A DNA stretch of 63,882 bases, the filler included, from Kipferlia bialata (lineage: Eukaryota): NCBI GenBank assembly GCA_003568945.1. It is 4 parts of 4 records of this genome, joined end to end, with 100 filler letters (N's around TTAATTAATTAA, not from the genome) between each part and the next. Parts side by side here need not be neighbours in the genome. Positions count along the whole stretch, not along the records: positions 1 to 17,662 come from BDIP01000520.1; positions 17,763 to 35,416 come from BDIP01000521.1; positions 35,517 to 53,111 come from BDIP01000523.1; positions 53,212 to 63,882 come from BDIP01000531.1. One strand, given 5' to 3'. Under the pieces are notes generated by a model. It saw only the letters and a list, made by a program, of their open reading frames with translations, was not told where the DNA came from and made no database searches. The position numbers and the translations under genes were made by a program. Shown here piece after piece: positions 1 to 63,540 of this stretch; positions within the stretch are counted from its first letter, which is position 1; each line of letters starts with the position of its first letter.

Positions 1-26
1 ATGACCTAACCCTGTCTCTAACACAG

Positions 27-1518
27 ACTGTCAGAGGCCTAGGTCTGGAGGTCCTGGTTTCAGATGATGTGAATGACTATTTCAGATACTTCATTGCTGA
101 GGGGTGAGTAATCCAGTTAGATCTAACTGAAATGTATAGTTTGATAGTCACAATTTGATTCATACTCAATTCCCTTTCACTTCTCCTCGGTTGTCAGGTG
201 CTAGCGTATACGGGGGTATGTATACATAAAAGCGTTTTACGTCTATTATACTTACTCTATCAACAATAGAGTAAGACCCTACCAATGTCAGTCTCTTACC
301 GCAGGATTATCTTAGAGGTTGAGAGAGAAAACATATATGAAATCTCCCCCACCCGTCCCCAGTGGAAGCGGATCAATGCTGCTATAGCTAGGGGGAAGGA
401 CCTTGGATTCCACAGGCTGTCAAGGTACAGTGCTGACAATTTTCTCTCTCTCCCCCACTTGTGAATGCATATGCCCTCTCTCTCTACAATGACTCTGTCT
501 TTCTTCTTATCTTATAATATATCTTATATAATTATCTTATAGTATATTTATATAATTATCTTATATAATAATCCTATAATTCATCTTATAGCAGCCGTGG
601 CCGTCTGGACTATGCTCGTGCAAGTGTGAAAGCGGAGAACATAGAGAAGGTAACTGGGAGGATAGAGTGTATATATGTGTGTGTGTTAAGGTATGGATAT
701 ATGTACAAAATCAGTATGTGCATAGTGACTACTTTAGATACTGCAAATATTATCTCTATTATATGGGGTGCTAATGATACTAACCGCAGGACTTCTGGTG
801 GGTGTGGTACCTACAGAACAAGGAAGCAGAGGGCATCGACTGGGAGGGGAATGTGGTGGAGACAGAGGGAGAGAGGGTGGGTGCATGTATACATAGTATA
901 TGTGTACTACCTAACCCTCACAGCATAACACTTGATCTCTCCTCTCTGCCCCCGCCTGTCTGTAATAATATAGCAATGTGTGAGTTCAGACTCACCAACA
1001 GTCAACGTGTCTTCTAGGTCCTTCTCTGCACTCTCTTCTACTCACCACAGCCTGAGTTCTGGTACGATGCCTGGGGCCCCGTCCTCGTCCAAGCACTTCC
1101 CCAGCTCTTTGGAAGGTGAATATGGTATATATTATGTAATATATATACTAGAGTTACTATTGTATTTATGATGTTTATGATACTGATCCCCGTGCACTGT
1201 CTGCCACAACTGTTTGGAAGGTGTCAGTAAATGGTATATACTCTGTTGTTCTTTCTCCCTATCTCCCCCCATTTCCCCCGCTTCCACAAGTCCAAGTGGT
1301 GTCTCGGAACCAAGTGTATCCACTACTGATAAGGGGTCTAGTACCACTAGCAGTAGTACCAGTCACAAGGCGTCCAAGGGAGCAGCGAAGGTATCAGTAT
1401 CAGTATCAGTATATACTCTATATACCATAGGGTATATATGTGTAATTTATATCATGTTCTCTCTCTACCCCCTTATCACAAGGCGTCCAAGGGAGCAGGG
1501 AGGTATAAGACGGGGTAG
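27..1518 (+). CDS. Hypothetical protein, tandem family copy 1 (multi-exon, 5' part outside window)
   Basis: GT-AG exons splice in frame to TVRGLGLEVLVSDDVNDYFRYFIAEG/IILEVERENIYEISPTRPQWKRINAAIARGKDLGFHRLS/SRGRLDYARASVKAENIEK/DFWWVWYLQNKEAEGIDWEGNVVETEGER/PEFWYDAWGPVLVQALPQLFG/SPSGVSEP...ASKGAGRYKTG*. The exons are homologous to copies 2 and 3. Confidence 0.75.
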
Positions 1519-2151
1519 ATGACGGGATTCGCCCATGCTTGAGGATTGGAGGACATAAGCGTATATACTTGCCCTGACTCTAAGTGACCTTATGGTTACA
1601 TGACCTGTTTCTTGGTGTCTGGTCTCAAGCAAATAGATGTCATGATATATATGGTATATATCTATATGGTATATATCTATATGATATATATGATATATAG
1701 ATGAGATGATTGTATCTGTCACAAGCCGAGGAGGCGCAGGACATGAAAACGATTGGGACGGGGGTGGAATGGGGACATCTATTGTTAATGCATTTGACCA
1801 GGTATAGGATGGTGCTTGTCAGACATTGACCACACCCTGATGCAATCAAAGTGTTCCAAGGTCTGTATCAAGAAGAAATCCCAACCTCATAGAGACACTC
1901 CAGAGACACTCCAGAGACACTCCAGAGACACTCTTGAGACAAAAACTCGACATTCAGACAACTACTATGCTATTGACCAGACCTCTAAGTTACAAATGGT
2001 GTAATGGGTGTTGAATAGGGTTGAAGGAATAATGGAATGAGTCATCCGGTTTTTGGAAGCGGATATTTCTGAAAGGGTCTAGTCAGTGCCTCAAGGACTC
2101 GTATCCACACTGGGTCTCTCCTGTCTCTATCTACAGACCTAGCAGATAGCA

Positions 2152-5100
2152 ATGGACGACTGTTACGTGGTGGAGGTTGATACTGATGATGAGGAGAGTG
2201 TGGAGATAGAAGATGAGTATCAGTGGAGTGAGGAGCACGAGATGTTGGCACAGCAGTATGAGATTACTGGTATTCCAAAGAGGCTTAACACAGCTCTAGA
2301 GATCCAGGTATATATACATGTATATGTATGATAGCAAATGAGCAGTTGGCACAGCAGTATAGGGCGACAGAGGATATACCAGAGGTGCTTGACACAGACC
2401 TTGAGACCCAGGTGTGTATATATATACATATATATATATGAGATGTTAGCAGATCAGTGAGAGAAGACTGGTATTCCGAAGATGCTTGACACAGACCTTG
2501 AGACCCAGGTGTGTATGATGTAGTCACGATAACTGATAACAATGAGTACATATGTATAGTAGTATATCCATTGTGACACTCTAGTATTGAGATCCAGGTG
2601 TATATATATATATGCTATAGTCACGATAACTGGATTTTTCGTGGCTGTGCGTAGTATCCCTCTCTCTCATTCTCTCTCTCTCTATATATTTATATACATA
2701 CACACGTGTGTAGTATGATATATAGTATATATAGTAGATCACAGACCCCTTCGAGGCACTATATATAGTATTCATATACCCTGACCCTGATTCTATATAT
2801 TTGTCTTTCTCTCTCTACACACACACATATTTATATACAAATATATACTGGTCATATATATATGTACTAATATATACTGATCATATCCTGACCCTGTTAT
2901 AACCACCCCTCTTCCGAGCACTAGTGCAGATAGTACTATATATATATGTATATACATATATAGCAGTATATGTATAGTGCGTCTCTCTCATATTCATGTC
3001 CTGACCCTGACTCTGACACAGGTTGCCAGAAGACTCAAGCATGAGGTTTTCGACTATGATGATGTGTATGACTACTTCAGCTACTTCATAGCCGAGGGGT
3101 GAGTGACATACTCTCTAGTTATATTTATACACATGTATAGTGTATATGTATAATGTATATGTTTGTATTATCCACTATTTAAGGTGTATGACTACATCAG
3201 CTACTTCATAGCCGAGGGGTGAGTGATCTGGTTAGTACTCTGTAATAGTCTGTGATCATTCTCCATAACTGATTCATTCTTCCTTTGCTGTCAGGTGCTA
3301 GTGTATGTGGGGTTTATATATATATATATATATATATTGGTAGAGTGTGGCCCCACTAATGTCAGTCTCTGACCCCAGGATTGTCTTCGAGGTTGGGGGA
3401 GAGAACAGCTTCAACATCTACCCCACCCATCCACAGTGGAAGCAGATTAACGCTGCTATAGCTAGGGGGAAGGAGCTTGGATTCCACAGGCTGTCAAGGT
3501 ACAGTGCTGACATTGAGTCTCTTTCTCTCCTTGGTTTCTGTGTCTATTCTCTCTCTACTGGGAAAGAATCCACCCTCTCTCTCTATGGTGACTCTGTCTA
3601 ATAGTAGCCGTGGCCGTCTGGACTATGCTCGTGTACAGTGCTCTCTCTCTCTTTCTCTCTCTCTCTGCTTCAATATTTTGGTTGAAGCCAAACTAACAGT
3701 AGCCGTGGCCGCCTGGACTATGCTCGTGCAAGTGTAAGAGTGGGGATCATAGCGAATGTAAGAGGGAAGATAGAGTATACATGTGTATACATTTATGTAT
3801 ACATACATAGTCAGTAAGTGCAGACACAAACTAATTTAGATACTGTATGTATTTCCCCTATTATATGGTGTCTATATATCTATGTATCTATATCTATATC
3901 TGTATAATGATAATATCTACTATCCCTGTTGTATGTATATAATGCTAACCCCAGACATTCTGGTGGGGGTGGTACATACACATACATACACATATATATA
4001 TGTATATTGGTACAGGATAGCTCCTATACGTATACAGCCTCTATCATGTATGTGGAGTCTGTATGCTGCTAACCCCAGACACTCTGGTGGGGGTGGTACA
4101 CAGTCTCTGGTACTCTGGTACATACAGTATATATATACATAGTCAACACTTTCCTTAATATACATATACAGTCTAACCCCAGACAGTCTGGTGGGGATGG
4201 TAGAGCAAGGGGCTGACGGATATATACTTGTGTATGTATATCCATATAGTGTATATGAATAGTGTATGTACCTGTAGTATTTACCCCAGGCATATTGGTT
4301 CGGGTGGTATTGCGACAACAAGGAGGCTGAGGGAATCGACTGGGACGGGAATGTGGTGGAAGTGGAGGGAGAGAGGGTGGGTTAATGTATATATATGTAT
4401 ATATGTGTACTTCCTTACCCTTACTACATTACCCTTGGTCTCTCCCCTCTGCCCATATGGATACTGATACTGATACTGATACTGCCCAAAATTCCTATTT
4501 CTATTATATAGCTATCTGTGTGTAAATACTCTCCAATAGTCCAATTATCCTCTAAGTCCTAAATTCATAACTCTTGATCTCTCCCCTCTGTCCCCACCAG
4601 TCTGTATGTTATACAGCTATGTGTCATTTTAAAACTCATCTCAGCCTGAGATCTACTACGACACCTGGATGTCTCTCTCTCTATATATATATACTATACA
4701 CTCCATATATATACTATATATATTAATATATATGCACGTCTATATATACCTCTCATCTCAGCCTGATATCTACTACGACATCTGGGGCCCCATCCTGGTG
4801 CAAGCACTGTCACAGATCTTTGGAAGGTATATAGGGTATATAGGGTATATAGGGTATATAGGGTATATGTATGTATGACTTGTGACAGGTATATACTATA
4901 TGTATATATGTATTACATATACTGAATATACAATGTATAGCTGTCATCGTGCAAGCACTGCCACAGATCTTTGGCAGGTGTGGCATGTGCCCCCTATGTG
5001 TCGCTGAGTCATATACTAGGGGCCACATTACATCTCACATCTCACAACATATATCTCATATGTCTTGCACTCTCTTTATTCTCTTGCCATTCTCTTCCAC

Positions 5101-62572: not shown

Positions 62573-62610
<38 letters not shown>

Positions 62611-63397
62611 TGATATAGTATATGTCTGTTATATATGCTAGTGTTCTAAGGTACTATCCATATGTATGAGCTCCGTCTGCAAGGCCAGATTGTGTCCAAC
62701 CTCAACACACAGGTATATATATATATATATATTGATATAGTATATGTCTATTATATATGCTAGTGTTCTAAGGTACTATCCATATGTATGAGCTCCGTCT
62801 GCAGGGCCAGATTGTGTCCAACCTCAACACTCAGGTATGTATATATATGCTAGTATACTATCTTTTTATATGCTTACTCTCTGTCTATATAATTATATAC
62901 GTTCTATATATATATATATATAGAACTAACTATTGAATTCAGGGCCAGATTGTGTCCAACCTCAACACTCAGGTATGTATATTAATATGGGTACATATAT
63001 ACTCTACGTATTATTATTGTATTATATATATTACACAGTATGCTATGATGACATTCATTTTGAGTCTTGAGAGTATTATTGTGTTACAGAATGTCATTAT
63101 AAGAGTGTAATTATGATATAAGTAGTACTAATTGTCAGGTCTCTGAGGTCAACGAGGACCTCAGCAGGAACAACAAGAACCTCCGGGAGATCAAGGTAAT
63201 ACATACATAAGTACATACATACAAGTGCATTATCCTTTCTACACCATGTATACATTTTTCATGGGAACAACAAGAATCTCGGGGAGATCAAGGTAGAGTA
63301 CAACATTCTCTCTCTCTTTCTTTCTCTCTCTCTTTCGACACCCTTATTTTAGGCACGCATGAGATCAGGCGACAAGTTCCTAATGGACATCGTGCTT

Positions 63398-63429
<32 letters not shown>

Positions 63430-63540
63430 ACACCCTTATTACAGGCCCGTATGAGATCTGGTGACAAGTTCCTGATGGATATCGTGCTTGTCATTGTACT
63501 ACTGGGACTGATGTGGTACCTGTACAAGGTGCTCTTCTAA
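59867..63540 (+). CDS. Qc-SNARE of the SYP7 (SYP71-like) family (5' end not seen)
   Basis: VVTLGQEIRRS in the N-terminal region. SNARE motif QDQNIDRKLEQIQDKLVRVKTQAQDIGDELRLQGQIVSNLNTQV with Q at the zero layer. C-terminal anchor MRSGDKFLMDIVLVIVLLGLMWYLYKVLF*, resembling the SYP7 tail. Confidence 0.82.

What the first reader, a model, noticed from the sequence alone, without database searches (positions are those of the whole stretch)
1..63540. Pervasive intronic 'exon-edge echoes' carrying decoy splice sites
Seen: in almost every gene, introns hold truncated 15-55 nt copies of the neighbouring exon. Copies of exon starts, with an AG and branch-like motif, lie upstream of the true exon. Copies of exon ends, with GT, lie downstream. 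Each is usually cut off by (TC)n or (TA)n. Examples are at 10569/10668, 12140-12380, 18790-19030, 19392-20082, 36490/36612, 44930/45050, 48870-49075, 61036/61170 and 62666-62975. In the introns I examined, donor echoes precede acceptor echoes. Inference: an ongoing local duplication process inflates introns, and splicing must skip many near-perfect decoys. That points to strict exon definition, or to stepwise removal of nested introns. I do not know of a description of this architecture.
Basis: partly seen in the sequence, partly recalled or inferred. Interest (0 to 1): 0.92.

Follow-up and report, generated by a model that had tools for sequence, protein, structure and literature searches.

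The report
Introns packed with skipped exon-edge decoys
In the protist Kipferlia bialata about half the introns examined hold short copies of the neighbouring exon's start or end with full-strength splice signals, which were skipped in the two echo-rich genes checked against RNA; the copies differ from the exon mostly at silent codon positions, so they likely come from DNA repair off other gene versions, a process that may also create new introns.

Summary
Confirmed. The window is four scaffolds of Kipferlia bialata. In 13 gene models, 80 of 156 introns hold 133 truncated exon-edge copies with intact AG or GT; wrong-side and other-gene controls give 0. DNA contigs carry echo and exon together at single-copy depth, and a spliced RNA contig skips at least 17 echoes. 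So neither mis-assembly nor constitutive microexons explain them.

Decoy sites score like true sites but lack a partner site across an exon. That fits cross-exon pairing. Nested removal does not fit: 59 of 75 introns hold one kind only.

New here: echoes differ from exons at 15.4% of four-fold and 2.4% of zero-fold sites (ratio 6.5, CI 4.0-10.7). Same-chromosome copying or conversion caps this ratio near 2. Best reading, inferred: break repair or unequal recombination against diverged alleles leaves a 12-47 nt duplication around about 80 nt of intron-like filler. One intron carries the textbook signature of gain by duplication. My 10 literature searches found no description of this architecture; single-gene precedents exist.

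The parts
17763..21560 (+). Echo-rich gene, DEAD-box-helicase-like (name recalled from motif VI; Pfam gave nothing on single exons); exon chain shown by RNA
   Evidence: (X2 record 10, 3339 nt)
18733..19029 (+). Four acceptor echoes of exon 19077-19174 (three keep AG), head-to-tail units; skipped in RNA (joint 18662-19075)
19392..20084 (+). Eight acceptor echoes of exon 20128-20233 (seven keep AG, with six different acceptor contexts); skipped in RNA (joint 19301-20128, 826 nt)
20302..20427 (+). Donor echo then acceptor echo in one intron; on one DNA contig with exon 20128-20233; skipped in RNA
   Evidence: (X1 record 6; X2 record places 1610/1611)
21084..21113 (+). Donor echo whose true exon is missing from the assembly (RNA has 19 extra letters before it)
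   Evidence: tables 5, 5c
9896..17508 (-). Gene model A, 16 exons, open frame; 11 of 15 introns hold echoes (includes 10569/10668 and 12140-12390)
17344..17458 (-). 115-nt predicted intron whose last 19 nt copy the upstream exon end and whose next exon starts GT: candidate intron gained by duplication
   Evidence: score 18.5; 1 of 155 introns; shuffled mean 0.0 at score 12 or more
3099..3218 (+). Derived insertion: about 77 nt filler plus duplicated exon end and donor; the paralogue's intron aligns end to end only from the echo's GT on
1363..1518 (+). Duplication with filler inside a last exon, absent from two paralogues; forms a possible new intron 1391-1482
35734..41522 (+). Gene model C, 17 exons; 10 of 16 introns hold echoes (includes 36493/36614)
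42019..52873 (-). Gene model D, 34 exons, open frame; 21 of 33 introns hold echoes (includes 44944/45060 and 48878-49074)
53264..57694 (+). ERCC4-domain gene (KIPB_005738), 26 exons; introns 56-141 nt, 0 of 25 with an echo at score 10: the uninflated state
   Evidence: (X2 record 9)
57847..59368 (-). Gene model H with a C2H2 finger; echoes at 58009-58045 and 58808-58832 (the latter first mis-called as a microexon)
59867..63540 (+). SNARE-like gene (name recalled; not confirmed by Pfam), 12 exons; 8 of 11 introns hold echoes (includes 61035/61167 and 62666-62972)

Best explanation
The echoes are real genomic half-exons, each a 12-47 nt copy of one exon edge with its splice site, which the mRNA skips, likely because sites are paired across the exon, and which likely arise when a break near an exon edge is repaired off a diverged allele of the same gene. 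Shown: presence at single-copy depth, skipping in two genes, full-strength decoy sites without a partner site, coding-like conservation, and in one paralogue pair a derived insertion of filler between two copies of the exon edge. Inferred: alleles would share homology in exons and lose it at the fast-changing intron, so repair or unequal recombination would go out of register there, often at TC or TA microhomology. The product is own splice site + exon edge + intron-like filler + a second copy of the edge. Only products whose decoy lacks a partner survive. Because both copies descend from working exons, they differ mainly at silent sites and keep AG or GT. When the duplicated stretch holds AG|GT inside an exon, the same event would give a new intron.
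For: Real: X1 contigs span echo + exon or echo + echo at depth 388-480, against 457-482 for unique stretches. Skipped: X2 record 10 joins true exons only, across 182, 412, 826, 299 and 269 nt holding 1, 4, 8, 2 and 2 echoes; in the SNARE-like gene the letters after 62262 match exon 62519, not echo 62457. Cross-exon pairing: decoy vs true acceptor 9.46 vs 9.63 bits (n=61), donor 9.7 vs 10.5 (n=41); best partner 1.9 vs 10.7 (n=57) and -0.6 vs 10.8 (n=37). Coding-like: unique mismatches by codon position 34/20/100, 95 silent vs 59 replacement; holds for C, G and T separately; four-fold 81/525, zero-fold 47/1967; ratio 6.5, bootstrap 4.0-10.7, phase permutation P 5e-5. A same-chromosome model stays under 2 in 18 of 18 settings. 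Changes on the echo branch are also silent-biased: 16/16 private (P 0.005) and 11/11 polarised (P 0.018). AG kept in 61 of 66, GT in 41 of 45, while donor flank positions +3 to +6 are at random-pair level. Metamonads lack Ku70/Ku80/DNA-PKcs and are thought to rely on homologous repair (PMC8516963, section 8).
Against: No second allele was seen: the contigs show no allelic letters (contigs drop variants), and the metagenome scan gave only a chance hit. The model needs silent diversity of about 0.14-0.28, which is very high and unmeasured. In the 1-9.5 kb paralogue family the silent bias is absent (5 silent, 9 replacement). Some arrays (18790-19100, 62528-62850) look like plain tandem copies. 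One filler (5119-5186) was copied from another gene's intron 1.7 kb away, not from an allele. RNA evidence is one majority contig per gene from one sample, so rare decoy use or decay of mis-spliced RNA is not excluded. X1 may be the sample behind the assembly and is not independent. Concentration at exon edges could be retention rather than targeting.
Confidence: 0.55

Rival explanations
1. Plain same-chromosome duplication (slippage, or staggered-break repair with filler), then neutral decay or occasional exon-echo conversion; edges are enriched only because selection removes the rest.
For: Explains side and order rules with no further assumption. Head-to-tail units up to 135 nt at 96% exist. 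The acceptor flank is closest to its own true site (top 5%) in 32 of 66 echoes. TC is enriched after acceptor echoes. The 3099-3218 insertion has the staggered-break shape.
Against: Predicts a four-fold/zero-fold ratio under 2; observed 6.5, lower bound 4.0. Silent share 0.60 exceeds the 0.38-0.45 ceiling (P at most 3e-5). No such duplication in 4495 intergenic nt or nine long exons.
Confidence: 0.2
2. Echoes are translated part of the time (rare or stage-specific microexons), which keeps them under protein-level selection.
For: 33 of 121 echoes have some partner site above the 5th percentile of true sites. A gene finder trained here included several in frame. Translation would explain the silent bias directly.
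Against: The bias is as strong in the 88 echoes without a partner (75 silent, 42 replacement). Only 9 of 33 possible microexons keep frame, as chance gives. The majority RNA contigs exclude them.
Confidence: 0.12
3. Decoy sites are used often, but the products carry stops and are degraded, so steady-state RNA only looks accurate.
For: Decoys score as well as true sites. Contigs show only majority forms. The species retains only 87 of 174 searched spliceosomal proteins (PMC6679479, passages).
Against: Seven intact decoys in one intron and echoes in about half of all introns would cost most transcripts of a 10-30 exon gene (inference). It does not explain the silent bias.
Confidence: 0.06
4. Nested or recursive splicing removes the intron stepwise through the echo sites.
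For: Donor echoes precede acceptor echoes in 16 of 16 mixed introns. Splice dinucleotides are kept in 102 of 111 echoes.
Against: 59 of 75 echo-bearing introns have one kind only, one with seven acceptor echoes and no scored donor echo. Only 8 of 61 acceptor echoes begin GT, so no donor is regenerated. The order is what geometry gives.
Confidence: 0.05
5. Mis-assembly: alleles or repeat loops written in tandem.
For: Allelic mixing would give a silent bias. The assembly is fragmented, with gaps inside arrays (19825) and duplicates flanking gaps (7689/8720, 38599/38654).
Against: Separately assembled contigs carry echo and exon together at full depth. Eight distinct copies exceed two alleles. 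Echoes sit at matching places in paralogues. The one assembly error found removes a copy (exon missing before 21084).
Confidence: 0.03

Closest known systems
Human F7 intron 7 minisatellite with silent 5' pseudo-sites (PMC1557585; abstract and outline read)
   Same: A repeat spans the exon-intron boundary, leaving functional-looking donors downstream that stay silent; the most upstream donor is used.
   Different: One gene, a uniform 37-bp unit, donors only. Here about half the introns, both donors and acceptors, non-uniform fillers, and coding-like conservation.
Staggered double-strand-break insertions and new introns in Daphnia pulex (PMC4202315; passages read)
   Same: Inserted filler between direct repeats of exon-terminal bases; repeated events lengthen introns.
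   Different: Exon-intron repeats there are 4-12 bp and tied to new introns. Here they are 12-47 nt, carry whole splice sites and stack up to eight deep, in a group reported to lack Ku-dependent end joining (PMC8516963).
Intron gain by tandem duplication across AG|GT (PMC2891723, abstract read; PMC3265369, search listing; 'Rogers model' is a recalled name)
   Same: Intron 17344-17458 has this signature; 1363-1518 is a related case.
   Different: Rare in the literature seen and 1 of 155 introns here; most events leave a decoy instead of an intron.
Introners (bioRxiv 10.1101/2022.06.06.494994; search listing only)
   Same: Insertion with target duplication, in intron-sized units.
   Different: No shared element family among fillers in this window; duplications are long; most insertions enlarge existing introns.
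Stwintrons and recursive splicing (PMC8469720, search listing; recursive splicing recalled)
   Same: Several splice signals within one intervening sequence.
   Different: Sites are mostly unpaired and no donor is regenerated.

Membership tests
Boundary-spanning repeat with silent pseudo-sites (F7 type) | Repeat includes the exon edge and the splice site | tested here: met
   111 of 121 echoes reach the edge; AG 61/66, GT 41/45
Boundary-spanning repeat with silent pseudo-sites (F7 type) | Pseudo-sites as strong as the true site, yet unused | tested here: met
   Scores equal; majority RNA contigs skip them in two genes
Boundary-spanning repeat with silent pseudo-sites (F7 type) | Uniform head-to-tail minisatellite unit | tested here: not met
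   True of a few arrays; donor flank close to its own site in only 14 of 45, acceptor in 32 of 66
Boundary-spanning repeat with silent pseudo-sites (F7 type) | Pseudo-site takes over when the true site is mutated | not testable with these tools
   needs minigenes
Staggered-break insertion (Daphnia type) | New filler between direct repeats of the target | tested here: met
   3099-3218 against the paralogue's intron; one clear case, others not polarised
Staggered-break insertion (Daphnia type) | Exon-intron repeat of 4-12 bp | tested here: not met
   12-47 nt, median 25; shorter ones lie under my threshold
Staggered-break insertion (Daphnia type) | Presence/absence polymorphism in populations | not testable with these tools
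   one sample only
Intron gain by tandem duplication | Intron end copies the upstream exon end, next exon starts GT | tested here: met
   1 of 155 introns, 17344-17458
Intron gain by tandem duplication | Precise splicing, and absence from orthologues | not tested
Introners | Family of similar inserted sequences at many loci | tested here: not met
   fillers share only low-complexity runs and a short motif within 64 kb; genome not available
Stwintron / nested or recursive splicing | Paired internal donor and acceptor, or regenerated donor | tested here: not met
   16 of 75 introns mixed; 8 of 61 start GT
Stwintron / nested or recursive splicing | Splicing intermediates and lariats | not testable with these tools
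   only contigs held
Tandem or mutually exclusive duplicated exons | Whole-exon copies with both sites | tested here: not met
   0 whole copies; partner at or above true in 3 of 57 and 0 of 37

The most novel reading that the evidence does not exclude
Kipferlia introns are an archive of allele fragments: recombinational repair between highly diverged alleles fails at exon edges, stacks splice-competent half-exons into half the introns, and at AG|GT sites creates new introns, so much of this genome's 125,000 introns were gained in this lineage and a reduced spliceosome keeps order by strict cross-exon pairing.
Probability: 0.25. Interest if true: 0.92.

Novelty: new variant of a known kind. Interest (0 to 1): 0.76.

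Why it matters
It offers, by extrapolation from this window, many thousands of natural competition experiments between a true splice site and an equally strong decoy about 105 nt away. The host has 56-141 nt basal introns, where pairing across the intron would be expected (recalled), and only 87 of 174 searched spliceosomal proteins (PMC6679479). That makes the rules of exon definition testable with existing reads. The silent-site signature hints at recombination among very diverged alleles in a lineage without Ku-dependent repair. The candidate new introns bear on whether this species' 124,912 introns are ancestral, as the genome paper preferred (PMC5874029, section 12), or partly gained. In practice, echoes mislead gene finders and collapse assemblies.

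Tried and rejected
No whole genome was held, so all counts are from this window. A protein search with the kelch-like ORF found nothing. The metagenome scan returned one chance hit, L001, a long phage-like ORF. One search listed no holder on record as RNA; X2 is a guessed RNA run, though its contigs skip GT..AG introns. One search's joint table was swamped by repeat noise (219 rows not shown). mRNA- or cDNA-templated origin: no copy of a spliced junction in the window, and echo flanks do not match the neighbouring exon, apart from 17344-17362. Contraction making the echo functional: no gradient of replacement changes with distance from the site, and the model caps the ratio under 2. Age order in arrays: far copy more diverged in 30 pairs, near in 23, tie in 7, so no order. 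General intron-gain signature: only 1 of 155 introns; mean equal to the null. Echo density against expression: contig depths differ (22.6 for the echo-free gene, 313 and 517 for two echo-rich ones), but contig depth cannot rank genes, so this is not evidence. Pfam did not confirm the helicase or SNARE names on single exons. ARAGORN found no tRNA. Two look-ups of earlier findings were empty. Searches used a model of gene H that took echo 58800-58825 for an exon; one search corrects it. Two introns with suspected missing exons were left out.
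Full report
Source and genes. The window is four scaffolds joined by 100-nt linkers at 17663, 35417 and 53112. An exon at 54626-54901 is 100% identical to Kipferlia bialata KIPB_005738, an ERCC4-domain protein; my model of that gene matches the record from residue 28 on. I built 13 gene models by hand with open frames: 170 exons and 157 introns, corrected to 156 introns. 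Three are backed by spliced contigs of run X2. For the ERCC4 gene, the gaps between listed pieces of record 9 fit my exon lengths, which I partly set from them. For the helicase-like gene, record 10 gives the junctions. For the SNARE-like gene, record 11 gives one junction and a fitting length. The other ten rest on open frames and paralogue agreement.

The observation. Exon starts recur in the upstream intron and exon ends in the downstream intron, never the reverse, at about 60 times the rate for non-adjacent introns. With an intact AG or GT required, 133 echoes lie in 80 of 156 introns; controls are 0. Copies are 12-47 nt and spaced a median 105 nt apart (quartiles 92-121). Each adds about 110 nt. 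Introns under 130 nt have none (0 of 48); 64 of 82 introns of 200 nt or more have them. The side and order rules need no special cause: any duplication across a splice site leaves the incomplete copy on the intron side.

Real, not artefact. Contigs of DNA run X1 carry echo and exon on one record at single-copy depth: 60184-60398 (451), 62953-63300 (480), 58011-59368 (474), 20130-20422 (388) and 19466-19589 (414), against 482 and 457 for unique stretches. Half depth would be expected for alleles written in tandem. X1 may be the sample behind the assembly, and no contig spans a whole array, so copy numbers in long arrays need long reads. The one error found goes the other way: the RNA holds 19 letters absent between 20891 and 21084, so a true exon is missing and its donor echo remains.

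Skipped in RNA. Record 10 joins true exons across introns holding 1, 4, 8, 2 and 2 echoes, and no X2 contig covers 18708-18977 or 19383-20057 (repeats there are partly masked by the tool). In the SNARE-like gene the letters after 62262 are those of exon 62519, not echo 62457. Contigs show majority forms only.

How they are skipped (inferred). Decoy sites score like true ones (paired P 0.93 and 0.45), and 58 of 61 and 39 of 41 lie above the 5th percentile of true sites. The best partner site across the would-be exon reaches the true one in only 3 of 57 and 0 of 37 cases. The chosen pair is the nearest strong AG and GT around an exon. Nearest-acceptor pairing across the intron is excluded for 19302-20127, where seven intact acceptors are passed. 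Nested removal needs paired sites, but 59 of 75 introns hold one kind only, and 8 of 61 acceptor echoes could regenerate a donor.

The unexpected signature. Echo-exon mismatches fall 34, 20 and 100 on codon positions 1, 2 and 3. Divergence is 15.4% at four-fold and 2.4% at zero-fold sites: ratio 6.5, 95% interval 4.0-10.7 over 69 exons. If an echo decays neutrally while the exon drifts at silent sites, or the two exchange sequence on one chromosome, the ratio stays under 2 (a one-site deterministic model). The bias holds per base and in five of six gene groups; it is absent in the 1-9.5 kb family. It holds in echoes with no partner site and on the echo branch itself. So the echo lineage was coding-constrained for much of its separation from the exon, yet it is not in the majority mRNA. 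No second genomic copy of these exons showed in X1, which leaves alleles. That needs silent diversity of 0.14-0.28, which I could not measure.

Shape of the event. One paralogue's intron (104-304) aligns end to end with 3219-3378 of its sister, so 3099-3218 is a derived insertion: new filler between two copies of the exon end plus about 8 intron bases. Other arrays are plain head-to-tail units, and one filler was copied from 1.7 kb away. Echoes lie at matching places in paralogues and often follow their own exon's letters (98 sites), so sites are re-hit or refreshed. No such duplication was found in 4495 intergenic bases or nine long exons. Metamonads are reported to lack Ku70, Ku80 and DNA-PKcs, and fornicates Rad51A, leaving homologous repair as the likely main route (PMC8516963, section 8 read). 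I infer out-of-register repair against a diverged allele, where homology ends at the exon edge.

Intron gain. The predicted intron 17344-17458 ends in a 19-nt copy of the upstream exon end, with one silent change, and the next exon begins GT. It is 1 of 155 introns; the shuffled mean at score 12 or more is 0.0. A duplication with filler at 1363-1518 is absent from two paralogues and forms a possible intron. Neither was checked against RNA.

Literature. Ten full-text searches found no account of this architecture. In the genome paper's main text 'duplicat' occurs 0 times (passages and section 12 read, supplements not read). It counts 124,912 introns and prefers an ancestral origin. Whether the window comes from that assembly was not determined. 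The closest precedents are the F7 pseudo-donors (abstract), Daphnia staggered-break insertions (passages) and gain by tandem duplication (abstract). The library lacks most subscription papers.

Verdict. Real and skipped: about 0.93. Cross-exon pairing: about 0.75. Allelic origin: about 0.5. A new variant of known kinds of event, at a density and with a coding signature that I found no precedent for. Interest 0.76.

Noticed in passing
17663-17762, 35417-35516, 53112-53211: 100-nt linkers (N44, 12 letters with stops in all frames, N44) join four scaffolds, the first three about 17.6 kb each.
   Followed up: yes
20890-21083: An exon present in the RNA contig is missing from the assembly; only its donor echo is left.
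   Followed up: partly
5119-5186 and 6843-6920: The filler between an acceptor echo and its exon is a copy of another gene's echo unit 1.7 kb downstream.
   Followed up: partly
2340-2516 and 3943-4202: Echo sets that agree with each other but differ from their own exon at the protein level; the second set is closer to a paralogue's exon. They look like records of other exon versions.
   Followed up: partly
9948, 18884, 20660, 35908, 42003, 60195-63426 and others: A short motif after (TC)n, 24 copies (21 plus, 3 minus), stands before acceptors of unrelated genes and in reverse after some stop codons.
   Followed up: partly
25874-31716: Introns of the two head-to-head paralogues at 23.6-32.7 kb are rich in ATTG/AATC repeats instead of TA or TC, so filler flavour is local.
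   Followed up: no
1-9460: Three tandem paralogues of an unnamed, fast-evolving seven-exon gene.
   Followed up: partly
22008-22913 and 33699-34616 (minus): Long uninterrupted ORFs; the second has a weak kelch match and no homologue was found. Echo-like repeats lie upstream of it at 34644-35410.
   Followed up: partly
53264-57694: The ERCC4 gene has 25 short introns and almost no echoes; why some genes escape is unexplained.
   Followed up: partly
7689-7721/8720-8752 and 38599-38624/38654-38679: Duplicates on both sides of N gaps may be scaffolding overlaps; one or two counted echoes could be affected.
   Followed up: no
40694-40841 and 46120-46420: Repeated exon-like or acceptor-like pieces without a matching full exon; more exons may be missing from the assembly.
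   Followed up: no
63837-63882 (minus): Resembles the end of a tRNA gene cut by the window edge (recalled likeness); ARAGORN found none.
   Followed up: partly
L001 406-3219: Chance hit: a 937-aa ORF that looks like a phage tape-measure protein, near an integrase-like ORF (names recalled); unrelated to the finding.
   Followed up: no
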